From the IMG/VR virus record IMGVR_UViG_3300008120_000330, positions 1-37,092 of that record: a DNA stretch of 37,092 nucleotides; one strand, written 5' to 3'. The first letter of the stretch is position 1; the number at the start of each line of letters is the position of its first letter. This DNA is from a virus. Lineage: Duplodnaviria > Caudoviricetes. The notes beneath the pieces were generated by a model that was not told where the DNA came from, made no database searches, and was given only the letters and a program-made list of their open reading frames with translations. The position numbers were made by a program, and so were the translations under genes. Of this stretch, positions 9,666-31,486 are shown one piece after another.

Positions 9666-11080
9666 CACCCGAAGAAGAGGCAATGCTTGCGTACATGATG
9701 GGCTACGGTACCTACGGCCTGCCATTAATGCCAAGCGCGGCATCGCAATTGAATCTCGTGCAGGATGCTGGCATGATGACGTTTGACCCCGTCTTCATGT
9801 ACAACTCAGGTTTGATTACGCCCGACATGCTGTTGATGCAGATTCGCAATGCCACGCATGAACCGGTTGGCGATGCGAATGAATACGATTATGAGTCAAT
9901 GCTCAATCGCGCGTCAGCCGCTGGTGAACAGGAATTGCTCCAGGGCATGAGCGACATTATGAATGGCGTCAACACCGCCAGCGGTTATGTCCGTAGGCTG
10001 AAGGCAAAACTACTGGACGCCGACCCCGAGACATCCTCTGCCCGCATGTCGTTGTACGACAGCATGCAGAGTGAACTCGAGAAGTTTGAGAAGGTGTGGA
10101 GCAACTACCAGATTGTCGAAGAGAAGCGGCAAACTGGAGAATACTTTATTGACGAGTCAACTGGGATGCTGATGAAGCCTCTCCTTGGCGAAAAGGCCAG
10201 AGAGAATCTTCGTGCTATGGGATGGAAGGGTCCGTTGTCGGAACCTGAGTTCTGGCGAACCATTCCAGATATGGCGACCGTGGACCAGGCGGCGAAACTG
10301 CAGGAGCAGTTGCGCCCGCAGATGGAAGCGTATGAGCGCGACCAGGAGATTGTTGAATCAGGCTGGAAGACCCGCGGCTGGAAGGATATCGAAGACGCGT
10401 ACCAGCGCGCCCTCACCCAGTTCAGCATGCCACAGACGACGCGTCAACTTGGTTACGAAGAACTTGGAACCATCAATGGATTCAATGTAATTCTTCGCCA
10501 GGAAGAGGGAAAGACAAAGGCGTATAGGTACGACTCAAACGGCAAACTCAAGGCCATTTCTCAACCGTTGAGTGATACAGAAATATCTCAATTGCGCAAT
10601 GAATCCGCTGACAGAAAATACAATCCCGGAAAATACCGCCAGGAAATCAAACTTCCCAATAGCGGAAAAATTGTGTATGAAGCGGGCAAGTCTTATCTCG
10701 AAACTACCGCACCTGGCGGCAGGCCCACAACAAGAACTGAAGTCAAATCTTCGACAAAGCAACCGACGCAGGAGCAGAAGTCGCAGGACTACTGGGCCAG
10801 GCAGGCTGCTTATTACACAGCCAAGGGTATGGGCGAAGAGCGCCAGAGGAAGAAGGAAGTTGCCGCAAATGCTGAAGCGCAAGTTGCGGCCAAAATGTTA
10901 GAAGCCCAACAGAGGGGAACAGTCCCTGCTTTGCAGTGGTTGCAGCGTATGCCGCAGTTGGCGGCACTCGCTGCCATGCCGGCTCCTGAAAAGCCAAAAG
11001 CAACTCGTCCAGCACCGCGAGTTCTTTCGGACCAAGAGATTGACACAATGGCCAACATGATTGCTGGAGGAATGCAGTAG
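9662..11080 (+). CDS. Putative internal virion/ejection protein
   Basis: ATGA coupling; ~470 aa helical protein preceding the giant ORF. Confidence 0.65.
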   Translation: MTPEEEAMLAYMMGYGTYGLPLMPSAASQLNLVQDAGMMTFDPVFMYNSGLITPDMLLMQIRNATHEPVGDANEYDYESMLNRASAAGEQELLQGMSDIMNGVNTASGYVRRLKAKLLDADPETSSARMSLYDSMQSELEKFEKVWSNYQIVEEKRQTGEYFIDESTGMLMKPLLGEKARENLRAMGWKGPLSEPEFWRTIPDMATVDQAAKLQEQLRPQMEAYERDQEIVESGWKTRGWKDIEDAYQRALTQFSMPQTTRQLGYEELGTINGFNVILRQEEGKTKAYRYDSNGKLKAISQPLSDTEISQLRNESADRKYNPGKYRQEIKLPNSGKIVYEAGKSYLETTAPGGRPTTRTEVKSSTKQPTQEQKSQDYWARQAAYYTAKGMGEERQRKKEVAANAEAQVAAKMLEAQQRGTVPALQWLQRMPQLAALAAMPAPEKPKATRPAPRVLSDQEIDTMANMIAGGMQ

Positions 11081-14000
11081 TGGCGACTTGGGAGGAAATC
11101 CTAAACGCAAATCCCAGGACTACGGCGACAGGAGGGCAGAGGACTACACCCGCTGTTGTTCGTCGCAGTGATGTCATGCGGCTACCACCTCCGACGAAGA
11201 CGGAGAGTTGGTCGCTTGGTGCTGACAAGCCCAAGAGCAAGGAAGCCGGTGGACTCATGGGTGTCCTCCAGGACATTCTTGAGAGTCCTGTCGGCAAGGT
11301 GGTTGGCAAGGCTGGAGAGATTATCTCCTTGCCCGGTCGCGTTATTCCTTCTGTTGCTCAGGAAATTGCTGATGCACTCGACAGTGACCCAAACACCAAT
11401 GCTTCGTGGAATGACCTTGGCAAGCAAATAACTGACCCGACATTTGGATGGGGAACAGTATTCGGTGATGTGTTCTCGGATGACAGTTTCTGGGGTAGGT
11501 GGGGCAACAGAGCGCTAGGTTTTGTTGGTGACATTGTCACCGACCCCCTGACGTACGTTACATTTGGTGGCAGTCGAGCGCTCCGTATTGGCAGTGAAGT
11601 CGCTGGCGAAACTGCCGAACAGTTGTCGAAGCGTGCTGCACGCATTGGATTTAATCCAGTTACTGGGCGTTCGGGACGTGAGGCTCTTGCCGTTCGCGTT
11701 CTCGAAAAGACTGGTGATGCGGACCTCGCAAAGAGGGCGTACCGCTATGGTCGTTCAGCATTGGCGGACCAGAAAGATGAAGTGTTCGAGACGCTTGGAA
11801 TGGACCGAGCCGGCGTCTACTTCATGGGTCGTCGCGTTGGATTCACAAGAACTGGCCAGGCCCTTGAAGGCTCGCTTGCTTCTATGCGCACGTGGTCTGG
11901 CGACCACTTGTTCAAGCGTGCAGCAGATGTATTTACGCCCGACGATGTTGCGGATGCTAGAAAGGCTCTGGCTCGTGGCACGGCACCGACTGAACGCGCT
12001 GCAAAATATCTACACATGGTTGTATCGGACAACACCAGACGCAAGGCCGTTGGCGCAGCATCGCGCAAGGCTTCTGCCCTTGTTGACGGACTCATCAAGG
12101 AAGTCGGTGAAAAGGATTTCAGGGCGGCAACGCCCAATGTGCGGAAGATTCTTGAAGGAGAACTTCCGTTTGTCGACCCCGTGACAGGTCTTGCGACGAC
12201 AGTTGAACAGCGCGTTGCCGGCAAGTTGCGCGATTGGTTTGATGTGCTTTGGAATGATATTGATACTGCGGCCAAGGCCGTTGACCCGGCTTACGAAGCC
12301 AGCAGGGTCAAGAACTATTTCCCTCACATGATGACGGACGATGCTCTGTTCTATGTGACGAGCAAGAACACAAAGAACACATCGGCATTGAGGGAGATTC
12401 TGTTCAACCCCCTCGATAATGCTGGTTCGTTCAAGCACAGAATGACACTCGACGATGAGTTCTTCGGGGTTCCCCTCAAGGATATTGATGGGCCAATTAC
12501 CGTCGACAGGCTGAATAAGATTGCCAACGATGCTGGTTTCAAGGGTGAGTTCTTTGAAACAAACGCAGCAACGGTCATGCAGAAGTATGTTGGTTCGTAC
12601 GCAGAGCAGATGGGCTTGATTGCGCGAAAGCAGTATCTGGTCGAGAAGGGCGTTTTCCAGCCCCTGTCCGATGTACTCAAGAAGTCAGACCCACAGGTAT
12701 TGAAGGACGCCAAGAAGGCGCTGAAGTTGGCTACCGAACGCCGCACTGCCGCAATTTCTTCTGCGGCAAGCAAAGCCCGTGAGGCTTTGTCTGCCGTGAA
12801 CAAGCAGGCTTTGACTGCTGCTGGAATCTACGACGCGGGCATCCTCCTTGATGATGCTATTGCGGACATGCTCGAACACAGCAATCGTTTGTCTGCCTTG
12901 TATGAAGAAGTGCCCGATGTAATTCGTTCCCTTGAATCCGATTACGAGGCTGTCGTCGCTCGCCTTGAATTTGCACGCGCCGCACTCACCGAGCCGCAGG
13001 CTCGGCTCGAAGATGTCCAGCGTGCGCTTGTGCGCGCAGAGGCCGATGCCCAGCGTCTATTCAACATTGAAGAGGAGATTGGCAAAGTCGGGGCATTCAT
13101 TCAGGAAAACCTCGACAAGATTATGAACGAGGGTTCATTCTCTGGTAGCGACGCAATTACCAATCTTGCTAGGGAATTGAAGGAAGCGGTATCGACCGGC
13201 GTACCCGTCGATGTTGAGGGTAAGCGAGTCGAGGCGCTTATTGCCGCCTCCAAAGAATCATGGTGGAAGGTAGCAAACCCCGACAACAGCATTACTGTCG
13301 ATTCGCTCAAGAATATGAGCGAGAAGCGGGTTGCCGAAATAGTTGAATCATCAATCCGTGGCAATGCCACAGTTGGGGAGATGCGTCAGGCATTGCTGTG
13401 GGTTGCTTCCGCCAACCCTCGCCTGCGTACATCTCAGCCCGAAATGTGGGAGTCGCTGTTTGGACCCAACGGCGTAATGAGAAAAGCCGCAGACGCAGAC
13501 AGAATCCATAGGAGTCTCAACGAAAGCCGATTCAAGGGTCGTCGTGCGGCGACAATTGCGGCACGACGCTCTAATTTGATTTCAGCGGAGCGTTCGCTTG
13601 CCGTTGGCATCAGAGAGTATGTTGCTTCTCGCAGGCTTGCCAACGAATTCCTGAACGCCGATACCGTCATGGGGCGCGCAATTGCTGACGCAAAGATTGC
13701 TCAGCCTATGGACAGATTGGCCGAACTGCTGGTTCGGCCCGAGTACATGGCAGTACGCCACTACTTCGATGGACTTCTTGGTCTCGCTGAAGATGCGGGA
13801 TTCCAGGGAGTGCCCAGGGAATTGGATGTCGACGACATCATGAAGATTCTCAAGGGCATCGGTTCGAACTTTGAAAACTCCAAGTCAATTACCGTCACGG
13901 TTGGATACGACACGACTGGCAAGATTGGCTCGAAGGCCATTGAGAAGTCGCTCACTATTGACATGTCGAACATGGTCGATGATGTTGAATGGCTGATTCG

Positions 14001-17000
14001 CTATGGTGACAACGACGATGTTGATTCATATATCGAAGGAATTACCAGGGGGACAATCACCGACAGCATCACCGTGCCGACGCAGAAGTCACGCGGTGCT
14101 CGGCGTGGTGGGAAGATTGTTGACATCGGTAAGGAAAAGCGCCCGGTTGATGCGGGCAAGGGAGCGCGTGACCGGCTGCAGGCCAGGATTCTGGGCTTTG
14201 AAGATAGTGCGGAGTTCCGTGAAGAACTTGCTGAAAAGGCTTTGCGCGAAGGCGATGCGCTTGGGTCGGCGATTCAGAGCGTAAAAGCAATTGGTAATTA
14301 TTTTGATGCCAATGCAATCAAGAAATCTCTTGTTGAAGTAGTGAAGCGCGAGGCCAGGGAGAATTCTCTTCGTGGCCAGTTGCAAGCACTCGATGCAGAA
14401 ATCGCACGCGAATTCCCGGACATCCCCGTTCAGTACTTTGGTACTGAAATAAACAAGCGTGGCAAATTGATTGGGGGTGTCCGAGACGTAGCGGATGTTG
14501 TCCGCTCCGACTCGTCCGACCAATTGCAAGACCTGTTGACAAAGTTGTGGTTTGTTGCTGATGTTGAAAAGCGCATTGCCGCAACTGTCGATGTATATGC
14601 ATCGGCCAATATGGTGCCGGGTCTTGGTGTTGTCCAAGAAATTTACAATCGCGTTGCTCGTGATTTCCTGGACCGCATTGGTTCCGTATCCGAAAGCCAG
14701 GCCAATGCCTGGAGCGCTCTCAGGGATATTCAGTACAAGATTCTCAACGGCGAATACGACAGCCCGGCTAAGGCATACGAGGCAATTGAAGAAGCAATTA
14801 AGACTCCAGCCATTTCCCGTGCTGTTGCAAAGGCGCGAGGCAATGCTGATGCGCCTAGACTTCTTCGCAAGTTGAATCAGTTTGGTGGACTCAGAAGTAG
14901 TACCGTAGAGTTCAAGGAACTCAAAGCGACTAATCTCGATGTCGCCCAGTCGATGCGCAAAGAAATGATAGAGGAATTGCGCGATTGGTACCAGGCTGTA
15001 TTTCCTGGAGCAAAGCGCAATACTGGGCTTCCTATAATCAAGGAACAACTAGAAATTATTGTCAAGTCCGAGCCTGGTGTCAAGCGCAAGATTGGCAATA
15101 AGTGGGTTACGGTCGAGCGCTATGGACCAAATGCTTCGATGGAAGAACTGTCGTCGTGGTTGGCTGAAACAATCAAGTCAGTCGGGGGTGACAACAGGTC
15201 AACGCGTCGTAATGTTTTGTGGCTCCAGCGTGCGGCAGACCCGTTTATTGACCCATACGACAAGGCGGTGTTCGGCTCTCGTCAGTGGAACGTAAATGTT
15301 CCATCTTCACTTGGAGCATCGCTGCGAGCAACAGCCGCCCAACTTGAAGAAGCAGTTGCTGCCGTAAGACTTGCCGACGAAGCAAGTGCTGCGGCCAAGC
15401 AGGCTCTCGAAAAGCAGCAGACCGAATTGTCGGAGTTGGAGTTGCTTGCGGAAACACTCGGCATCCCTGCTGGCCAAAGGCCGCGGATGCCGCTGACAAA
15501 AGCACAACGCGAAGGGATGACGCAAGAAGACTTGTCAAAGGTGCGCGATGTTGTGCGCAGCATTTTTGAAATCAAGAACTCTCCAGATTATTTGGCGGCG
15601 GTTGAGCGTCGTGGATTGAACGATGTAATCATGATGCTCGCTGACGTAGCCAGCGAGGGTGGGGTAAAGATTCCTCTGGTCAGAACTCATGTGACCAAGG
15701 CTCGTGAATTATTCGACACGGGTATTGAAATCTTTATTAGGCGAGATGAGAACAGCAAGTGGGTTCCGGTCACTTCGCGTGGTCAGATTACTGATGATGT
15801 AAAGCCAGGTAATGTGGGCCAGAAGTATTGGTCGCTTGCTCGCGGAACAACTAAACGTGACGGCGGGCAGTTTGTGCCAGACGCCGCCAAGAATGTCCGC
15901 AACAAAAAGACTATTGAGAAGTTCTACAAGCGCATCGATGAACTCGATGCGATGCGCACGAGCAGAAAGATTTCGGAGAAGAAGTATCAAGCCGAAATCA
16001 ATAAGATATACGACGACCTGGATAGATTGGGACGTAATACCGAATCGGTAAGTCAGACCGAAAACATCGTCCCAATTCTGAGCGAAGGAAAGGAAGAACT
16101 ACGGAAGTACGTTCGTTCTCTTGAGAATCAACGCACCAAGTTGGTTATTGAAAAAAACAATATTCAGGGTGGCGTTGGCAGTATCACGGACGAGACAGCC
16201 GCTAAGTTGCGGGCCGCCAAGCAGGTTGAGATTGATGAACTAAGCAAGAGTATTGAAGAAGCGAATGTCAAACTGTCTAGACGTATTGACGCATCGCGCT
16301 TTGTCCAGCGCGATGGTAGTGATATTCAGTTCAGCGCAGAGGAAATTGAATCATTGTTCCTTACCGCTGGTGACACCGCTGGCGTAGAGAGACTGGCAGC
16401 CGAAGGCCGTCGAGTCGATACCTACTTGCTTGAACTTGAATACAACAGAACAAACGGCCGCATTGGCAATGCCGTCAAGAAGTTGTTGCGCGAGCAGCAG
16501 ATGTCAGATGAAACACGCGCTCTGTTGGAGCGCTGGCTCTCGCGTCCTTCGACAACCTACGGAGACAGGCCGTTGGAGTTCGTGAGTGCCGCCGGTTCGA
16601 AGGTCAGTTTCTTCGAGGCAATAGTCAAGCCGACAATTGATGCGGAGATTAAGCGCCTAACGGAATATCGCAACCGTATTCAGATGTTGATTCGTGCTTC
16701 GCAGCCCGATGTGCAACGCTCGGCCCTAATGAAGGCGCACTTCATCAACCAGGGATTGAAGAATGGTGATTTCACCATTGACGAATTGACTGGTGGTATT
16801 TCCAGGTTGCCCCGCAATTCATCGCCGTGGCAGACCACGGCTCGTAGAGGTCACCTCGAAAGGGTGTGGAGCCAGTCGGTGGACAAGAAGGTTCTCGACA
16901 AGGTCGATGAACTCGAGCGCACGGCACAGGCTGCGAAGTATCGTGAAATCGTGAAGTCAAAGGAGGCGGCTGCCGACCTTGCCGCTCGTATGCGCGAACA

Positions 17001-19221
17001 GGCAGACAAACTGGATACTGATGCACGCGGCAAACTTGGTGTTGCCGAAGGCATTGCTACCAAGATGGTTCAAACGATGGAGCAGATGACTTCTCGTCTT
17101 GGTGATGACATTGAGTACGATGTCATGGCTCGCTACGACCAACTTGTGAACCCAATCCAGGGAAGCCGCTCGAAGCGGCTGAAACCAACTGAGGCAATAG
17201 AAAAAATTCGTGACGAGATTCTGGAACTGCGTCCGATTGAGAAGGGGCCGGTTGGTCCATCGGGCACAATGCTTGTTCGTGGTGCTGATGATGCGGCCAA
17301 TGCCGCTGAAATCAAGAGACTTGCAGACCAGGCGATTTACTACTCCAAGGAACTCGAACCCAACTTCGATATGGCGACTGGCCGCATGACACTGGGTCTT
17401 GAGGTTAGTTTGCGCAAGCGGGCTGTCGCCGCAATTGCCGACCAGAAGGAAGACCTCGCTGGAGAACTCGAGAAGACCAAGAAGGCTTGGGCCAAAGAGC
17501 AGAAGGCTCTCGCTAAGCCATTGAAGTCGGCGGCCAAGGATGCTCAGAAGCGTTTGGTGAAAGCCGGCAAGACGCAGGTTGATGCAATGGCCAAGTTCGA
17601 TAGTGCTGAATTGTTTGCGATGAGCGCGGCTGAGTACGCCGAAACAATTATCCCCAAGTTGCACGCCAACCGTGAGCGGTTGGCTACTCTCATGGGAGAC
17701 ATTGAGAAATTCCTGAAGCGTACTGACAACGACATGGCGTTTGTTGGTGATGTGCTCGCATGGTTGGACGAGGCCGATTCAATCATCGATGACCTGCTAC
17801 CCCAGAGCAGCGCCGACCAGATTGACATTATGACCAGGCTTCGCACCGACCTGGCTAATCTCGAATATGAGTTTATGTCGTCGACAAACCAGGAACAGTT
17901 CCTTCAGAAGTTCAACGCTGGTCTCGCAGATGGTACTGTCGGTCAACGAATTGTCAAGGAGGTCGACAAGGCCAAGGGATTTGTTAGCCTGCAAGCATAC
18001 GGCATGCCCTCATACCAGGCGGAGAAGTGGCTAAGCGACATGTATGTAAACATGTCGCGTCTCCAGGTTCCCGAATTTGCCAGGGCACTCAGCAAGTTCC
18101 TCAGCAAGTACACCGGATTCTTTAAGGCATACGCAGTATCGACGCCTGGATTCGTTGTTCGAAACAGCATGGGCAATACATTCATGTGCATTGCTGGTGG
18201 TGCTGATATCGGAAACATGACCGAGGGACTACGCCTGTACAGGGCTTGGCGTGGAGCGGTCAAGACTGGCGACGAAGCGGGATGGCTTGCCAAGCAAGAC
18301 CCGCGCGTGACTACCGCTATCGCAGCAATGGACGCATCAGGATACGGTCGCGCTACGGAAGCGTTGAGGATGTTTAATCCCAAGCGCAAGTGGCTGGTTG
18401 ACAATGGATACGTCAATGCTTTCCGAAAGGCCAATGAAGTATCGGAAGGTTCGGCTCGCTTTATGCTCGCCTGGGACACCGTTGTGAAGGGCGGAGACTT
18501 CAACGATGCGACAGCCAGGGTCAAGCGATTCTTGTTTGACTACAGCACGACGACACCGGCGGACACGGTGATGCGTCAGTTCGTCCCATTCTGGTTCTGG
18601 ATGTCGCGCAACCTGCCAATGCAGATTGTGAACCAGTACGAGAATCCTCGTGCTTACCTCATGTACCAGAGAGTGACGAACTCAATTCGTGCCGAAGAAG
18701 ACGAGGGCGAAGTCGTGCCCAAGTGGTTGCGCGAATCGGGTGGCGTGAAGATTGCCGATGGCCTGTACGTAAACCCCGACTTCGGATTCAATAAACTGAA
18801 TCAGCAATTGTCCGAACTGGCCGACCCAATGCGGCTGACCTCTTATGTCAACCCTGGTCTTCGCGTGCCGCTCGAAGCAGTCTTCGCAAAGCGCAAAATG
18901 TACACCGACACGCAGTTCAGCGAAAAGGCGCAGGAAGTTACGGGTGGTGCGTTTTCCCCGGCAGTATCCGCTTTGGCGGTTCTGTTGGGCCAGTCAAAGG
19001 AATTGCCAGACGGCAGCATGGGCACGACCGACAGATTCAACTACGCAATGAACAACCTCGTTCCGCCGTTGGCGCAACTCAGTCGTTTGTCTGGCGAAGA
19101 TGATTACAACAAGGAGCGTCGTCGCAGTAACTGGGCAAGTTACTTCGGCATCCCCGTGCGCGAGGTCACTGATTCGATGATTGAAGCAGAGTTGCGTCGC
19201 AGAAAGCGAGAAGGTGAGTAA
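11080..19221 (+). CDS. Giant ejection / DNA-delivery protein (2713 aa); C-terminus resembles large-polyvalent-protein (LPD38-like) regions
   Basis: Uninterrupted 8.1 kb ORF; GFVGDIVTDPLTYV near the N-terminus; NYFPH; C-terminal PGFVVRN...FLFDYS...FVPFWFW typical of large podophage internal proteins. Confidence 0.75.
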   Translation: MATWEEILNANPRTTATGGQRTTPAVVRRSDVMRLPPPTKTESWSLGADKPKSKEAGGLMGVLQDILESPVGKVVGKAGEIISLPGRVIPSVAQEIADALDSDPNTNASWNDLGKQITDPTFGWGTVFGDVFSDDSFWGRWGNRALGFVGDIVTDPLTYVTFGGSRALRIGSEVAGETAEQLSKRAARIGFNPVTGRSGREALAVRVLEKTGDADLAKRAYRYGRSALADQKDEVFETLGMDRAGVYFMGRRVGFTRTGQALEGSLASMRTWSGDHLFKRAADVFTPDDVADARKALARGTAPTERAAKYLHMVVSDNTRRKAVGAASRKASALVDGLIKEVGEKDFRAATPNVRKILEGELPFVDPVTGLATTVEQRVAGKLRDWFDVLWNDIDTAAKAVDPAYEASRVKNYFPHMMTDDALFYVTSKNTKNTSALREILFNPLDNAGSFKHRMTLDDEFFGVPLKDIDGPITVDRLNKIANDAGFKGEFFETNAATVMQKYVGSYAEQMGLIARKQYLVEKGVFQPLSDVLKKSDPQVLKDAKKALKLATERRTAAISSAASKAREALSAVNKQALTAAGIYDAGILLDDAIADMLEHSNRLSALYEEVPDVIRSLESDYEAVVARLEFARAALTEPQARLEDVQRALVRAEADAQRLFNIEEEIGKVGAFIQENLDKIMNEGSFSGSDAITNLARELKEAVSTGVPVDVEGKRVEALIAASKESWWKVANPDNSITVDSLKNMSEKRVAEIVESSIRGNATVGEMRQALLWVASANPRLRTSQPEMWESLFGPNGVMRKAADADRIHRSLNESRFKGRRAATIAARRSNLISAERSLAVGIREYVASRRLANEFLNADTVMGRAIADAKIAQPMDRLAELLVRPEYMAVRHYFDGLLGLAEDAGFQGVPRELDVDDIMKILKGIGSNFENSKSITVTVGYDTTGKIGSKAIEKSLTIDMSNMVDDVEWLIRYGDNDDVDSYIEGITRGTITDSITVPTQKSRGARRGGKIVDIGKEKRPVDAGKGARDRLQARILGFEDSAEFREELAEKALREGDALGSAIQSVKAIGNYFDANAIKKSLVEVVKREARENSLRGQLQALDAEIAREFPDIPVQYFGTEINKRGKLIGGVRDVADVVRSDSSDQLQDLLTKLWFVADVEKRIAATVDVYASANMVPGLGVVQEIYNRVARDFLDRIGSVSESQANAWSALRDIQYKILNGEYDSPAKAYEAIEEAIKTPAISRAVAKARGNADAPRLLRKLNQFGGLRSSTVEFKELKATNLDVAQSMRKEMIEELRDWYQAVFPGAKRNTGLPIIKEQLEIIVKSEPGVKRKIGNKWVTVERYGPNASMEELSSWLAETIKSVGGDNRSTRRNVLWLQRAADPFIDPYDKAVFGSRQWNVNVPSSLGASLRATAAQLEEAVAAVRLADEASAAAKQALEKQQTELSELELLAETLGIPAGQRPRMPLTKAQREGMTQEDLSKVRDVVRSIFEIKNSPDYLAAVERRGLNDVIMMLADVASEGGVKIPLVRTHVTKARELFDTGIEIFIRRDENSKWVPVTSRGQITDDVKPGNVGQKYWSLARGTTKRDGGQFVPDAAKNVRNKKTIEKFYKRIDELDAMRTSRKISEKKYQAEINKIYDDLDRLGRNTESVSQTENIVPILSEGKEELRKYVRSLENQRTKLVIEKNNIQGGVGSITDETAAKLRAAKQVEIDELSKSIEEANVKLSRRIDASRFVQRDGSDIQFSAEEIESLFLTAGDTAGVERLAAEGRRVDTYLLELEYNRTNGRIGNAVKKLLREQQMSDETRALLERWLSRPSTTYGDRPLEFVSAAGSKVSFFEAIVKPTIDAEIKRLTEYRNRIQMLIRASQPDVQRSALMKAHFINQGLKNGDFTIDELTGGISRLPRNSSPWQTTARRGHLERVWSQSVDKKVLDKVDELERTAQAAKYREIVKSKEAAADLAARMREQADKLDTDARGKLGVAEGIATKMVQTMEQMTSRLGDDIEYDVMARYDQLVNPIQGSRSKRLKPTEAIEKIRDEILELRPIEKGPVGPSGTMLVRGADDAANAAEIKRLADQAIYYSKELEPNFDMATGRMTLGLEVSLRKRAVAAIADQKEDLAGELEKTKKAWAKEQKALAKPLKSAAKDAQKRLVKAGKTQVDAMAKFDSAELFAMSAAEYAETIIPKLHANRERLATLMGDIEKFLKRTDNDMAFVGDVLAWLDEADSIIDDLLPQSSADQIDIMTRLRTDLANLEYEFMSSTNQEQFLQKFNAGLADGTVGQRIVKEVDKAKGFVSLQAYGMPSYQAEKWLSDMYVNMSRLQVPEFARALSKFLSKYTGFFKAYAVSTPGFVVRNSMGNTFMCIAGGADIGNMTEGLRLYRAWRGAVKTGDEAGWLAKQDPRVTTAIAAMDASGYGRATEALRMFNPKRKWLVDNGYVNAFRKANEVSEGSARFMLAWDTVVKGGDFNDATARVKRFLFDYSTTTPADTVMRQFVPFWFWMSRNLPMQIVNQYENPRAYLMYQRVTNSIRAEEDEGEVVPKWLRESGGVKIADGLYVNPDFGFNKLNQQLSELADPMRLTSYVNPGLRVPLEAVFAKRKMYTDTQFSEKAQEVTGGAFSPAVSALAVLLGQSKELPDGSMGTTDRFNYAMNNLVPPLAQLSRLSGEDDYNKERRRSNWASYFGIPVREVTDSMIEAELRRRKREGE

Positions 19222-27587: not shown

Positions 27588-28481
27588 TTACTTGGTGCTG
27601 ATGAACTTGCTGTACTTACTACCCGAGCAGAAACAGTTGCCGACCTGCTTCTCGCAGAACAAGCAATAGCCACACTCGTAGCAGAACTCCTGCTCCCTGA
27701 TGCGGTTGACATCTGAACCGAGGTTCACATCGCAGGTGGGGCAGTAGAAGTAGCGGTCGAGGTCGTCGTGCTCGTTACCTGTCTCAATCCAACCACGGAA
27801 CTCGTCCCACTCGAACACGGTGCCATCTTCTTCGTCGACCCACACATCGGGGTTGTAGTCGAAGTCGTCGGCAGGCGTAACGCCGGTGGTGTTGGTGACA
27901 TGCGAGGTGTACTTGTACGACTGGGCGTACCACTGGTACTTGTACGAGTTGTTGCTGTACCACACGCCGTGGTCCCAATGACCGTCGCCCTCGTTGACGA
28001 GATAGACAGGCTTGGCCAACTGCTTACTCACAGAGATGATGGCCAACTTGCTACCGGCCGCGAACTTCTCCAACTCTGCGAAGTTCTCGGGGTCGTCGAG
28101 CACATTGGCAACACCGAGTTCGGGCAACCATTCCTCTGCGAACTGGCGAGTGTCTGACTTGCCATTCTCTTCCTTGATGGGAAGCATGCCGTTGTGTGCG
28201 AGGACGATGCCCTCGTCGACGACAAAGGGGTGGCAGTTGTCGATACTCGTAGCACCGTGAGTGGTGATACGCAGATGGAAGATGGCGTGCGCCTTGGGGT
28301 ACTCGGCTCGCATCTCGTGGAACAGGTCGATGGTACTGTCGAGGTCCATCGAACGGTGGTGGAACAGTTGGTCCTTGATGGCGAGGGCAAAGCCGAAGCC
28401 ATCAGGATTGTTGGCACCAGCGGTACGCAGATTCTTCTTGCTCGGCGTAGCACCAGGCTTGGCATAGATGAGTAGACACAT
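27588..28481 (-). CDS. Class II (Ntn) glutamine amidotransferase with C-terminal Cys-rich domain
   Basis: Cys at position 2; NPDGFG, HLRITTHG, NCHPF, AHNG and SDT motifs. Confidence 0.9.
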   Translation of the reverse strand: MCLLIYAKPGATPSKKNLRTAGANNPDGFGFALAIKDQLFHHRSMDLDSTIDLFHEMRAEYPKAHAIFHLRITTHGATSIDNCHPFVVDEGIVLAHNGMLPIKEENGKSDTRQFAEEWLPELGVANVLDDPENFAELEKFAAGSKLAIISVSKQLAKPVYLVNEGDGHWDHGVWYSNNSYKYQWYAQSYKYTSHVTNTTGVTPADDFDYNPDVWVDEEDGTVFEWDEFRGWIETGNEHDDLDRYFYCPTCDVNLGSDVNRIREQEFCYECGYCLFCEKQVGNCFCSGSKYSKFISTK

Positions 28482-28510
28482 GTGTAGTTCTCCTTTGTGA
28501 TGTGATGAAG

Positions 28511-28526
28511 TGATAGGAACCTATCA
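28511..28526. repeat. 16-bp palindrome TGATAGGAACCTATCA (copy 1 of 4)
   Basis: Overlaps the amidoligase stop codon; upstream of the GATase SD. Confidence 0.9.
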
Positions 28527-29735
28527 GGCCACGCCTCGATGAGACATGAGCGGGTGAAGGTCAGGATAGGTGGCGATGTTGTCGCTAGCCCACGCACTGA
28601 ACTGCGTCCAGTCAAGCGCACGCTTCGACACTGCGTCGTTGGCCCTGATGTCACGGGTGTACTGCCACAACGCATGGCTGTACTGAATGATGCCCTTGAC
28701 AGTTGCGGGACGCAGGCTCGAGCGGAAGTAACGCAACTCGACGGTGTTGGCAGGCTGAATGTTCACCGCAACATAGCGGTCGTAGTTCGTCTGCTGACCC
28801 TTGGCCATTGCCACACGGTTATCGCCGTTCATGCGTCCGAACTTGGCATACGACGAGCGACGACCAGCGAATCGCTGAATCGCCTCGTAGTTGCGGTCGT
28901 GGAAAGTCATGAACTTGTACAGGTGTGAGCCAGATGAGAACGAGTTCTTGCTGATGTGAACATGGATACCGGTGTCGGTACGACTCCACGCACTCATGCC
29001 GTACTCGCTGAGTCGACGCAACTTCTCGAACGGGAACATCTCCAAGTGGACACGATAGTCCGCAGGGTGAGTCACGATTTCGAAGCCGTTGATGGAGCCG
29101 TCCTCTTTGAGAATGATGTAGTCATTCTCGATACCGTCGAGGAAGAACTCGGCCGCATCGTTGAGGTTGTCCTCGTCGTCGATGTTGGTCTCGACCTCGA
29201 TGCCGATGTACGGCATGTTGCGCACACGATGACGAGCGATGCCGTTCACCGTCCACGAACGGAAGGTGAGGTTGTCGACCGTGTGATGGTACGACTGAAT
29301 CAGATGAGAGCGATGCGACTGCGGATAACACTCTCCGTTGTCGCAGTAATACTCATCGGTCCTGTCGGAGTACAACAGGCTGTTGGTCGCCTGTCTGTAA
29401 TCGCAGTTGCCACACCGCGAAACATACTCGTCCATACACACACGACATGCGAGGTCGGACTCGTAGTCGTTGATGAGATTCGTCCACGACTCGGGGAAGT
29501 AGTCACCGCACAGTGAGCACGACTCCCCGCTGTCTTCGTGGAACCAGAGGTGAACACATCGTGAGACAACTGACTGTCCGCTGTCCACGATGTAACTAAT
29601 CTCACGGTGCCGCAAGAGGTGATGTGGAACCTCGATGCTCATCGCATCGTCACGAGGAATGTTCTCTCGTGTCTCGAAGCAGAGCACCATCTCTGGTGCC
29701 TCCTCCTCCGGTACAAAGTCTTCTGATGCTGTCAT
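28524..29735 (-). CDS. Putative amidoligase (COOH-NH2 ligase, Amidoligase_2-like) with N-terminal Cys-rich region
   Basis: IGIEVET, EDGSINGFEIVTHP, TGIHVHIS, RYVAVN and TVELRYF motifs; AAAGGA SD before the ATG at 29735. Confidence 0.88.
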   Translation of the reverse strand: MTASEDFVPEEEAPEMVLCFETRENIPRDDAMSIEVPHHLLRHREISYIVDSGQSVVSRCVHLWFHEDSGESCSLCGDYFPESWTNLINDYESDLACRVCMDEYVSRCGNCDYRQATNSLLYSDRTDEYYCDNGECYPQSHRSHLIQSYHHTVDNLTFRSWTVNGIARHRVRNMPYIGIEVETNIDDEDNLNDAAEFFLDGIENDYIILKEDGSINGFEIVTHPADYRVHLEMFPFEKLRRLSEYGMSAWSRTDTGIHVHISKNSFSSGSHLYKFMTFHDRNYEAIQRFAGRRSSYAKFGRMNGDNRVAMAKGQQTNYDRYVAVNIQPANTVELRYFRSSLRPATVKGIIQYSHALWQYTRDIRANDAVSKRALDWTQFSAWASDNIATYPDLHPLMSHRGVA

Positions 29736-29783
29736 GTATTTCCTTTGGTATTGCGTGTTCTCCACACGCAGACAACACACGAA

Positions 29784-29799
29784 TGATAGGAACCTATCA
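29784..29799. repeat. 16-bp palindrome (copy 2 of 4), capping a long leader hairpin
   Basis: Identical sequence, within the 115-nt intergenic region upstream of the amidoligase gene. Confidence 0.9.
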
Positions 29800-29850
29800 C
29801 TGATGTGCTCTCTGCGTGGGGCGAGACTCATCTCGCCACACGACAGGGTA

Positions 29851-30072
29851 CTAGAACAGTACCTCTTGGTTGCGGTCGGCTCGCCAACGAGCGAGCATGA
29901 CCCCATTCACACGGAAGTCACGCGCCTCGCAGAATCCGAGCAACGAATCGAGTTGTTCGGCAAACCGAATCGTGTCCTCCACATCGGTGGCGACACGAAC
30001 GATGAGCCACGAACCACACTCATCGTCAGATTCGACAGCGAGCGTGGTCACCTTCTCGTTGTATTCCCTCAT
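29851..30072 (-). CDS. Hypothetical early protein (MREYNEK...)
   Basis: GGAGG SD; ATGA coupling. Confidence 0.65.
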   Translation of the reverse strand: MREYNEKVTTLAVESDDECGSWLIVRVATDVEDTIRFAEQLDSLLGFCEARDFRVNGVMLARWRADRNQEVLF

Positions 30073-30434: not shown

Positions 30435-30557
30435 TCAGTTGTTCTCCTTGTTGTTGTGATTACGGACACGACAGACCACGCACTCGTCGTGGTCGGGAGT
30501 GTGCTCGAAAGCCCACTCGGTGATGAGAGGCACGCTCTCATTTGTGTCGTTGTTCAT
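30435..30557 (-). CDS. 40-aa small protein downstream of hammerhead 1
   Basis: GAAAGGG SD; MNNDTNESVPLITEWAFEHTPDHDECVVCRVRNHNNKENN. Confidence 0.6.
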   Translation of the reverse strand: MNNDTNESVPLITEWAFEHTPDHDECVVCRVRNHNNKENN

Positions 30558-30572
30558 GTGATTTCCCTTTCG

Positions 30573-30635
30573 GTACACCTGTCTCATCAGACACGGGCGG
30601 TGAACTCCGTGTGACGCACCGAAGTGCGTTTCGAC
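30573..30635 (-). ncRNA. Type II hammerhead ribozyme 1 (core 30581-30635 plus pseudoknot tail)
   Basis: - strand: GTC GAAAC GCAC-TTCG-GTGC GTC^ACACGG-AGTTCACCGC-CCGTGT CTGATGA GAC AGGTGTAC. Full catalytic core; predicted cleavage between 30613 and 30612. Confidence 0.93.
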
Positions 30636-30739
30636 TAACGCTTCATGTCCTGCGAAATTGACCACGACACACCGTTTGCGAAACCGCATTGGCAGGTGTA
30701 CAGCCAGCAGAGCGTTGTGATGTATTGACGGAAATCCAT
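30635..30739 (-). CDS. 34-aa small ORF between the two hammerheads
   Basis: GAAAGGA SD; MDFRQYITTLCWLYTCQCGFANGVSWSISQDMKR; its TAG overlaps the first base of hammerhead 1. Below the ORF-track cutoff. Confidence 0.6.
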   Translation of the reverse strand: MDFRQYITTLCWLYTCQCGFANGVSWSISQDMKR

Positions 30740-30752
30740 GTGATGTCCTTTC

Positions 30753-30814
30753 GTTGCGCCTGTCTCATCAGGTGCGGTAGGCGAACTCCGCACGACGCCT
30801 CACGGCGTTTCGAC
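30753..30814 (-). ncRNA. Type II hammerhead ribozyme 2 (core 30762-30814 plus pseudoknot tail)
   Basis: - strand: GTC GAAAC GCC-GTGA-GGC GTC^GTGCGG-AGTTCGCCTA-CCGCAC CTGATGA GAC AGGCGCAAC. Predicted cleavage between 30794 and 30793. Confidence 0.93.
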
Positions 30815-30817
30815 TCG

Positions 30818-30833
30818 TGATAGGAACCTATCA
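30818..30833. repeat. 16-bp palindrome (copy 3 of 4)
   Basis: Overlaps the stop of 30831-31238; 3 nt upstream of hammerhead 2. Confidence 0.9.
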
Positions 30834-31238
30834 CTTGTAGCCCATGGCACGCAGGACGATGTCCTGCTTGGCAGGGGCGAACTTCTTGTTCATCATGAAG
30901 ATGCGGACGAGGTCGATTTCGTCCTTGCTGAACTTGATGACCTGCTTCTTGCTCGGAGTCGCGTACGACTTCTTGGTCTCACGGGCGTGTTCGAGCGACT
31001 TGAACTCGTCGCAAGTGTGGCCCTGCTTGATGAGGAACATCAACTCCATCACATACTGGCGAATGGTGTTCATCTTCCAGTCCTGGCTGACCTTTGCCGA
31101 TGCGACAGCGTAGGGCTGAGCCTTGCCATCGAACTTGCTCAGGCATTCCTCAGCCGCACTCCACCAACCGGCGAGAGCGGCCTTATTGCCACGACGAATC
31201 GCACTCTCGTGCGTGGCGAAGTTTGTCTTGCTGTTCAT
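30831..31238 (-). CDS. First early gene, hypothetical (MNSKTNF...)
   Basis: AAGGAGG SD; phage-typical codon usage; basic protein. Confidence 0.75.
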   Translation of the reverse strand: MNSKTNFATHESAIRRGNKAALAGWWSAAEECLSKFDGKAQPYAVASAKVSQDWKMNTIRQYVMELMFLIKQGHTCDEFKSLEHARETKKSYATPSKKQVIKFSKDEIDLVRIFMMNKKFAPAKQDIVLRAMGYK

Positions 31239-31253
31239 TTCATTTCCTCCTTG

Positions 31254-31269
31254 TGATAGGAACCTATCA
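31254..31269. repeat. 16-bp palindrome (copy 4 of 4; here GTGATAGG-AA-CCTATCAC)
   Basis: Directly abuts the SD of the first early gene. Confidence 0.9.
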
Positions 31270-31486
31270 CGGTTGTGGTTGTGGTTGTTCGGATACGAGC
31301 GACCAACCGCAACGGGTCGAACCATTCAGCCCGCTGTGCGCTGTTCTCCTACCCTTGCTTCGCACGGTGTAAGTGCGGATACGGAACGCCCCTGGTCAGG
31401 GTGCTATTCGACCCCAATACGACGACAAGGGGGGCGCATGGGGGCCCACCGCCAGCCCACTAGACGGAGTCCCTCCGCGCAGAGCC

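What the first reader, a model, noticed from the sequence alone, without database searches (positions are those of the whole stretch)
30613..30793. Double cleavage would excise a 181-nt mini-mRNA that could circularise into a hammerhead-containing, peptide-coding circle
Seen: the fragment between the two cut sites carries the SD and the whole 34-codon Cys/aromatic-rich ORF (30635-30739). Established: hammerhead cleavage leaves 5'-OH and 2',3'-cyclic phosphate ends, which are substrates for RtcB or ribozyme self-ligation, as in retrozymes and viroid-like RNAs. Inference: stem II (GUC/GAC) is identical in both copies and stems I and III are self-contained, so joining the ends rebuilds one intact chimeric hammerhead. 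A dsDNA phage could therefore produce a viroid-like coding circRNA. This is the best candidate for an undescribed system in the window.
Basis: inference. Interest (0 to 1): 0.85.

Follow-up and report, generated by a model that had tools for sequence, protein, structure and literature searches.

The report
Twin hammerheads bracketing a phage peptide
Two self-cutting hammerhead RNA motifs flank a 34-codon gene in an uncultured phage and likely cut a long message into a linear single-gene piece, a layout described in phages in 2011; nothing found here shows the proposed RNA circle.

Summary
Two type II pseudoknotted hammerheads lie on the minus strand with predicted cuts 181 nt apart, enclosing an RBS and a 34-codon ORF that has one 79%-identical homolog. 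The circle reading is unsupported. Perreault 2011 described this layout, raised the circle idea and detected none. In viral contigs it is the norm: 382 of 464 type II hammerheads precede an RBS+ATG, 85 of 125 neighbour pairs enclose one gene, and 114 of 204 stand alone. Shared stem II is no more enriched than other paralogous features, and no order bias favours reclosure (21 vs 14, p=0.31). A relative has one ribozyme and no peptide gene. Best reading: ribozyme-RBS leaders that likely cut the transcript into 5'-OH, hairpin-capped single-gene mRNAs. One lead: a contig from a probably-DNA run lacks the unit, joined within 5 nt of the cut, and strains swap genes behind the ribozymes, as PeSL cassettes do in T4-type phages. 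No RNA data tested circles directly. The scan noted this arrangement before on other DNA (7 notes).

The parts
30753..30815 (-). Upstream type II hammerhead: stem II 5' arm 30814-30812, GAAA 30811-30808, stem III, predicted cut after 30794, stem I 30793-30772, CUGAUGA 30771-30765, stem II 3' arm 30764-30762, pseudoknot tail from 30761
   Evidence: Model R1 62.9 bits; sequence; not found by Rfam
30572..30636 (-). Downstream type II hammerhead, predicted cut after 30613, with its own pseudoknot
   Evidence: Rfam RF02276 37.3 bits; model R1 68.3 bits
30613..30793 (-). 181-nt fragment between the predicted cuts (would carry 5'-OH and 2',3'-cyclic phosphate)
   Evidence: end chemistry as described in PMC3884650 (passages)
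30737..30752 (-). RBS-like GAAAGGA and AUG behind the upstream ribozyme
   Evidence: Sequence; same layout in 382 of 464 related hammerheads against 394 of 2320 control windows
30635..30739 (-). 34-aa ORF, function unknown; not membrane-spanning by hydropathy
   Evidence: homolog P0001 (40 aa, 79% identical, E 6e-13); no PHROG or Pfam family; best 19-residue hydropathy 0.82
30555..30571 (-). RBS-like GAAAGGG and AUG behind the downstream ribozyme (second copy of the leader module)
   Evidence: (repeat D4, spacing 181)
30435..30557 (-). 40-aa ORF headed by the downstream ribozyme
   Evidence: the exact protein is in the collection on 8 contigs
30817..30834 (.). 18-bp palindrome directly before the upstream ribozyme; one of four copies at gene boundaries
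   Evidence: 4 found, 0.15 expected; kept at the four matching places in L124
30831..31238 (-). 135-aa ORF upstream; its stop codon lies in the palindrome
   Evidence: no PHROG or Pfam family

Best explanation
Each hammerhead is the front end of a repeated leader module (ribozyme, ribosome-binding site, start codon) that likely cuts the phage's minus-strand polycistronic transcript, releasing a linear 181-nt single-gene mRNA for the 34-residue peptide and giving the next gene its own 5' end. Shown: the two motifs, their pseudoknot pairing, the RBS-ORF-stop layout, and the same layout around unrelated genes in many phages. Inferred: both ribozymes cleave during or soon after transcription; the products part quickly because after the cut only a 3-bp stem II holds them; each downstream piece keeps stem I and the pseudoknot as a structured 5'-OH cap about 55 nt before its AUG, which would slow 5'-monophosphate-dependent nucleases; each upstream piece keeps stem III as a 3' hairpin. 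The likely effect is separate stability and translation of small accessory genes. A likely side effect is that the conserved module serves as a DNA recombination joint for swapping such genes.
For: Family layout: 382 of 464 distinct type II hammerheads in the fetched viral loci are followed by RBS+ATG within 60 nt (control 394 of 2320); 413 of 464 have a stop triplet just before or overlapping stem II (control 1297 of 4640); in 85 of 125 neighbour pairs with an RBS the first ORF ends within -3..40 nt of the next ribozyme; the enclosed ORFs are unrelated (120 clusters among 123 named ORFs); spacing runs from 204 to 1907 nt; 114 of 204 ribozymes with at least 1450 nt on both sides have no neighbour within 1500 nt, so a pair is not required. 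Structure is kept within each ribozyme: own stem II Watson-Crick paired in 264 of 282 cases, chimeric stem II in 98 of 141; pseudoknot 91% paired with changes on both sides in 4 of 4 pairs. Relative L124 has one ribozyme at this site before a different gene. Literature: tandem phage hammerheads cleave in vitro and in vivo and were read as mRNA processing (PMC3088659 section 6; PMC6765202 section 13); a cyanobacterial RNase E is much more active on 5'-P than 5'-OH RNA (PMC10939160 passages).
Against: No RNA evidence for this phage: cleavage, product stability and translation are untested, the host is unknown, and the purpose of such processing is still called unresolved in the 2019 review. The 181-nt spacing is shorter than all 141 other pairs (minimum 204), so this fragment is the easiest of the set to circularise. 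115 of 141 pairs could form a full chimeric stem II if G-U is allowed, and the order test leans, not significantly, towards circle-competent pairs (21 vs 14). Nearest-neighbour folding gives the native stem II only about 0.002 probability even in the precursor, so it cannot judge product release.
Confidence: 0.72

Rival explanations
1. One reading: the 181-nt fragment is closed by a host RtcB-type ligase or by the rebuilt hammerhead into a stable, translated circle, and that circle is the selected product.
For: Ends are chemically right; RtcB closes hammerhead-cut retrozyme monomers to 30-80% in vitro (PMC7229834 passages); the chimeric hammerhead with its pseudoknot is complete and close to the circular MFE; shortest spacing of the set; RtcB occurs in 10 of 14 control genomes.
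Against: Perreault 2011 reports no circular or spliced product from such clusters (data not shown there). Stem II sharing is no greater than sharing of unrelated features; no significant order bias; 114 of 204 ribozymes are solitary; pair and peptide are absent from L124; no RtcB or RT match in the phage record; fold z +0.43 as a circle. A circle with an intact hammerhead would reopen: self-ligation reached about 10% for three genomic hammerheads (PMC3884650) and 1-3% for retrozyme monomers.
Confidence: 0.05
2. The pair exists mainly as a DNA-level gene cassette: recombination between conserved ribozyme-RBS modules inserts, deletes and swaps small genes, as PeSL elements do in T4-type phages; cleavage is the module's own function and the enclosed fragment is incidental.
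For: Run X19 holds a contig that runs from the downstream ribozyme's stem I directly into the upstream ribozyme's stem III, lacking the 181-nt unit (loose end at 30617 matches window 30799-30820). DNA? run X7 has 149 other letters between 30546 and 30792 (one contig, depth 2.3, 20 letters on the short side). DNA? run X9 has the same two ribozymes but a different RBS and gene start behind the downstream one. L124 has a different gene behind a single ribozyme. PeSL precedent: a flanked ORFan replaced by one chimeric element (PMC2839356 section 16).
Against: Shared blocks between the two copies are only 5-13 nt, far shorter than the ~100-bp PeSL similarity. The X9 breakpoint lies behind the ribozyme, not in it. 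Single short contigs can be other strains or assembly products. Does not explain why catalytic cores are kept. Compatible with the best explanation rather than exclusive.
Confidence: 0.13
3. RNA-level skipping or RNA-mediated mobility: after double cleavage the outer pieces are ligated (the peptide unit is spliced out), or the excised unit is copied back into DNA at a ribozyme cut site.
For: The X19 joint falls in the 5-nt block that abuts the cut (30613-30617 = 30794-30798), only 5 of 57 nt in shared blocks of 5 nt or more; X19's library text says RNA-Seq cDNA. In the family, 6 of 16 partly shared pairs part at the cut.
Against: The tool marks X19 'probably DNA' (longest contig 62,867 nt) and X19 shows no depth over 30672-30738, as for a strain without the unit, though its cover is patchy (20 of 30 bins). 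One observation; about a 1 in 10 chance by length. Crossovers inside stems would break the ribozyme, so selection alone favours junction positions; 8 of the 16 pairs part before or after the whole ribozyme, and by eye several of the 16 are local substitutions or paralogs. No RT match in the phage. Perreault 2011 found no spliced product.
Confidence: 0.04
4. The cuts act as decay or shut-off switches: cleavage destabilises the peptide mRNA, or uncouples it from upstream translation, to keep a harmful early product low, as with glmS.
For: glmS cleavage leads to degradation (PMC6765202 section 13); a 3' end with only a short hairpin is a weak shield (inference).
Against: The cut sits upstream of an intact RBS and leaves a structured 5' end in 382 of 464 cases; no ligand-sensing domain is visible; glmS-type decay needs a 5' exonuclease that accepts 5'-OH (recalled), and the host is unknown.
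Confidence: 0.06

Closest known systems
Clustered type II pseudoknotted hammerheads flanking single genes in prophages (Perreault et al. 2011, PMC3088659; Rfam RF02276)
   Same: Type II topology, short open stem II, loop I/3'-tail pseudoknot, several copies flanking single variable genes in a phage genome.
   Different: Nothing in kind. New phage, new peptide, and the shortest unit among the 141 pairs I measured; the evidence for gene swapping at the ribozymes was not in the sections I read.
Retrozymes and viroid-like circular RNAs (Cervera and de la Pena 2020, PMC7229834; review PMC7761336)
   Same: Two hammerheads in tandem release a 170-400-nt RNA with ligatable ends.
   Different: Those use type I or III ribozymes in repeated units of a mobile element, with circles shown by RNase R and blots. 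Here: type II, one copy in a phage gene row, a protein-coding insert, no fold beyond shuffles, no circle shown.
PeSL regulatory cassettes of T4-type phages (Arbiol et al. 2010, PMC2839356)
   Same: A repeated intergenic expression module brackets small orphan genes; a relative has one chimeric module in place of module-gene-module.
   Different: PeSLs are promoter-terminator elements of about 100 bp with DNA mini-circles shown; here the module is a ribozyme plus RBS with shared blocks of 5-13 nt, and no DNA circle was tested.
RNase III processing of the T7 early transcript, and ribozyme insulators such as RiboJ (both recalled, no call)
   Same: Cutting a polycistron just upstream of an RBS to give defined, hairpin-protected 5' ends.
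   Different: T7 uses a host enzyme and leaves 5'-phosphate; RiboJ is synthetic.

Membership tests
Type II hammerhead (RF02276; Perreault 2011) | Conserved core CUGANGA, GAAA and an NUH cut triplet | tested here: met
   Both copies
Type II hammerhead (RF02276; Perreault 2011) | Stems I and III closed by loops, stem II open | tested here: met
   covariation in 60 relatives
Type II hammerhead (RF02276; Perreault 2011) | Score at Rfam's gathering threshold | tested here: inconclusive
   Downstream copy 37.3 vs 37; upstream copy not reported at E<=1 but 62.9 bits with model R1
Type II hammerhead (RF02276; Perreault 2011) | Pseudoknot between loop I and the 3' tail | tested here: met
   4-bp core with compensatory change between copies; duplex -6.7 and -4.5 kcal/mol; 254 of 464 relatives have 4 or more pairs vs 20% swapped
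Type II hammerhead (RF02276; Perreault 2011) | Self-cleavage | not testable with these tools
   No raw RNA reads available
Clustered phage hammerheads flanking genes | Several ribozymes bracketing single, variable genes in a phage genome | tested here: met
   Phage gene set; layout; 85 of 125 pairs
Retrozyme / viroid-like circRNA | Circular RNA form exists | not testable with these tools
   No RNA holder on record; only contigs laid
Retrozyme / viroid-like circRNA | Highly self-paired fold beyond shuffles | tested here: not met
   z +0.44 linear, +0.43 circular; 55-63% paired
Retrozyme / viroid-like circRNA | Type I or III ribozymes in repeated unit copies, or ribozymes in both polarities | tested here: not met
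   Type II, minus strand only, one unit
PeSL-type shuffling cassette | Promoter plus terminator stem-loop | tested here: not met
   No sigma-70-like site on the minus strand and no terminator-like site at the ribozymes; the scan covers sigma-70 consensus only
PeSL-type shuffling cassette | Relatives with one chimeric module in place of module-gene-module | tested here: inconclusive
   One 157-nt contig in X19; L124 single ribozyme with another gene
PeSL-type shuffling cassette | DNA mini-circles | not testable with these tools
   No back-joint listed in the 8 runs laid; contigs drop rare forms

The most novel reading that the evidence does not exclude
Ribozyme-bounded gene units are closed and moved as RNA: the 181-nt fragment is ligated into a peptide-coding circle, the outer pieces are spliced, and the unit is gained or lost in DNA exactly at the hammerhead cut, as the X19 joint would fit. 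A dsDNA phage would then own a minimal RNA-mediated gene cassette system.
Probability: 0.06. Interest if true: 0.85.

Novelty: new member of a known kind. Interest (0 to 1): 0.27.

Why it matters
The purpose of hammerheads in phage genomes is still open (PMC6765202 section 13). This locus does not settle it, but it is a compact test case: one 310-nt transcript holds two ribozymes, two RBSs and a peptide gene, and natural variants with one ribozyme or other genes exist. The comparative counts (464 ribozymes, 141 pairs) favour a leader and processing role over circles. If the circle or RNA-mediated cassette reading were true, it would be the first such RNA from a dsDNA phage that my searches could find.

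Tried and rejected
RNA evidence: no RNA holder listed; RNA run X24 laid 0 records, and X19 and X20 are marked probably DNA. These blanks say nothing about expression or circles. No back-joint was listed in 8 runs of contigs: not evidence of absence. The metagenome scan gave 11 matches, 1 the same phage (L129) and 10 chance hits; L128 was chance too. Searches for more close relatives returned only the same phage, a fragment of it (L126), L124 and three weak hits without a ribozyme; none in isolated phages by blastn or in genome contigs. The locus of homolog P0001 could not be fetched, so whether it sits between ribozymes is open. P0002-P0004 are repeat proteins and were dismissed as chance. Host: best capsid hits are 43% or less, so host and host RtcB are unknown. 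Folding probabilities of stem II are uninformative (0.025 chimeric, 0.002 native). Leaderless start: the fragment begins with a GUG in frame with the peptide (52-aa ORF), but it lies in stem I and a normal RBS-AUG follows; rejected as chance. Rolling-circle translation: 181 is not a multiple of 3 and the ORF has a stop; fragment lengths in the family show no preference for multiples of 3 (40 of 141). Membrane-toxin reading of the peptide: hydropathy too low. Literature searches listed no paper showing circles from dsDNA-phage hammerheads or hammerheads as recombination joints; the library lacks most subscription papers.

Full report
Setting. The window is a 37,092-base virus record with terminase, portal, scaffold and capsid genes on the plus strand and helicase, primase, exonuclease, resolvase and amidoligase-like genes on the minus strand. 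The finding lies near the upstream end of the minus-strand block, in a row of small genes without family hits. Near-identical DNA occurs mostly in freshwater-type runs. The host is unknown.

Observation. Both ribozymes are real motifs. Rfam finds the downstream one at threshold and misses the upstream one; a covariance model from 60 other phage hammerheads finds both and nothing else in the window. The predicted cuts after 30794 and 30613 release 181 nt holding an RBS and a 34-codon ORF. Each ribozyme has a loop I/3'-tail pseudoknot, the contact that Perreault 2011 showed to be needed for fast cleavage (passages); in the 60 relatives this helix is 91% paired with changes on both sides in all 4 pairs (the alignment was chosen for this subtype and the structure set by eye). 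The repeat is really a module of ribozyme, RBS and start codon, present twice 181 nt apart; the second copy heads a 40-codon ORF. The peptide is probably translated: one homolog of 40 aa is 79% identical. It has no family match and no membrane-spanning stretch.

Family survey. My scanner read all 390 loci then held plus the window, with 0 hits in 565,480 shuffled bases. After dropping the window and four copies of it (L123, L125, L127, L129) and identical contexts, 464 distinct ribozymes and 141 neighbour pairs remain; near-duplicate phages are not removed and the sample is conditioned on my patterns. 382 of 464 are followed by RBS+ATG (control 394 of 2320). In 85 of 125 pairs with an RBS the first ORF ends at the next ribozyme, often overlapping stem II as here, and 114 of 204 ribozymes with long flanks have no neighbour within 1500 nt. 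The enclosed proteins fall into 120 clusters among 123. The window's layout is therefore the family norm; only its short spacing (181, against 204-1907) stands out.

Test of the circle argument. Identity is enriched in neighbour pairs (92 of 141, 2.2x shuffled), but so are stem III start, first bases after the cut, tail, upstream bases, stem I length and tail class (1.8-3.2x), as expected for duplicated modules. Where stem II differs (49 pairs), the circle chimera can pair in 23, the skipped chimera in 16 and neither in 12; circle-only 21 versus skip-only 14, p = 0.31. This leans slightly towards the circle and does not exclude it, but shows no clear selection. Own stems are Watson-Crick paired in 264 of 282 cases, chimeric ones in 98 of 141. 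Short units do not share stem II more than long ones (40 of 58 vs 52 of 83, p = 0.48). The fragment folds like its shuffles; 38 family fragments up to 330 nt have median circular z -0.87 (range -5.06 to 0.99). A circle could form the full hammerhead at little cost, which means it would also reopen; reported self-ligation is about 10% for three genomic hammerheads (PMC3884650 passages) and 1-3% for retrozymes, against 30-80% with RtcB (PMC7229834 passages). The phage record has no RtcB or RT match, though a host ligase is plausible. Trace circles as by-products in an RtcB-bearing host remain possible (my estimate 0.2).

Relatives. L124 (70% identical amidoligase-like protein) has one ribozyme at the same place, with the same stem II and stem III as the upstream copy, before an unrelated 64-aa gene; no peptide gene and no second ribozyme. 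Contigs of public runs show more forms. X8, X9, X10 and X11 cover the peptide unit. X9 keeps both ribozymes but has another RBS and gene start behind the downstream one. X7 has 149 other letters between 30546 and 30792 (weak). X19 has a 157-nt contig, depth 30, that fits 30496-30617 and continues with 22 letters equal to 30799-30820, that is, the site without the 181-nt unit; its last six letters look like adapter (recalled). The joint lies in the 5-nt shared block touching the cut, 5 of 57 nt in shared blocks. The run is marked probably DNA, so a strain with a single chimeric ribozyme is the plain reading. It matches the PeSL pattern of T4-type phages (PMC2839356 abstract and section 16). Crossovers inside stems would break the ribozyme, so helix junctions are favoured without any RNA step. 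Across the family, of 28 pairs with long shared sides, 12 share everything, 6 part at the cut, 8 before or after the ribozyme and 2 inside stems, several being paralogs or local changes: mixed.

Mechanism. Most likely (0.72) both ribozymes cleave the transcript; the products part because only three base pairs of stem II join them; the peptide mRNA and the next mRNA each start with a 5'-OH, stem I and pseudoknot about 55 nt before the AUG, and the upstream pieces end in stem III. A 5'-OH end is a poorer RNase E substrate than 5'-P in a cyanobacterial assay (PMC10939160 passages), so a stabilising, insulating role is plausible but inferred. Gene swapping at the modules is a likely side role (about 0.5 as a side role, 0.13 as the main one). 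A selected coding circle gets 0.05, RNA-level skipping or mobility 0.04, a decay switch 0.06.

Prior knowledge. Perreault 2011 (passages, section 6, first part of section 11) describes type II pseudoknotted hammerheads, clusters flanking single variable prophage genes, cleavage of three clusters in vitro and one in vivo, and states that spliced or circular products were not detected (data not shown). Its supplements (Figures S1-S3, blots) were not read and may bear on product size and stability. The 2019 review (passages and section 13) calls the purpose unresolved. PMC7761336 was seen as passages. Seven earlier notes of this scan on other genomes reach the same reading; they are unchecked and did not change mine, which I had stated before the look-up.

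Verdict. Observation confirmed; interpretation partly supported; a new member of a known, still unexplained kind. Interest 0.27. The one lead worth a follow-up is the skipped form in X19 and gene swapping at the ribozymes.

Noticed in passing
window 28510-28526, 29783-29800, 30817-30834, 31253-31270: Four copies of a 16-18-bp palindrome at gene boundaries of the minus-strand row (4 found, 0.15 expected). L124 keeps it at the four matching places, with symmetric changes in the outer pairs and a variable centre. Likely an operator for a phage regulator, or an RNA hairpin signal; one copy directly precedes the upstream ribozyme.
   Followed up: partly
run X19, contig on window 30496-30617: Skipped form without the 181-nt unit, joined in the 5-nt block at the cut site; DNA or RNA origin unresolved.
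   Followed up: partly
run X9 at 30574 and 30792-30833; run X10 at 30545; run X7 at 30546: Other strains carry a different gene behind the downstream ribozyme, a shorter region to the next palindrome (243 letters in X10 record 1 against about 745 here), or, at depth 318 in X9, a ribozyme with a near-identical stem III and another stem I in an L124-like context. X7 and X10 both part from the window at 30545-30546.
   Followed up: partly
L124:3138-3200: The relative's single hammerhead has a GUU cut triplet instead of GUC.
   Followed up: no
L269-L271, L339-L342, L281/L013, L172: Phage contigs with rows of 5 to 8 type II hammerheads, several heading consecutive small genes.
   Followed up: partly
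L333 (two ribozymes 1178 nt apart); L098 and L099: Direct repeats of upstream sequence plus stem III that end at the cut site (106 nt in L333, 44 nt in L098/L099).
   Followed up: no
window 27588-29906 (-): Amidoligase-like gene next to a class II glutamine amidotransferase; the true start of the former is probably near 29730, behind the palindrome and an RBS.
   Followed up: no
window 11080-19221 (+): 2713-aa ORF without PHROG or Pfam match, in the virion gene block.
   Followed up: no
P0001 C-terminus vs window 30634-30620 (-): The homolog's extra tail (ERSKTK) resembles the read-through of the window's stop into the ribozyme (*SKRT), a weak hint that its gene also runs into a ribozyme-like sequence.
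   Followed up: no
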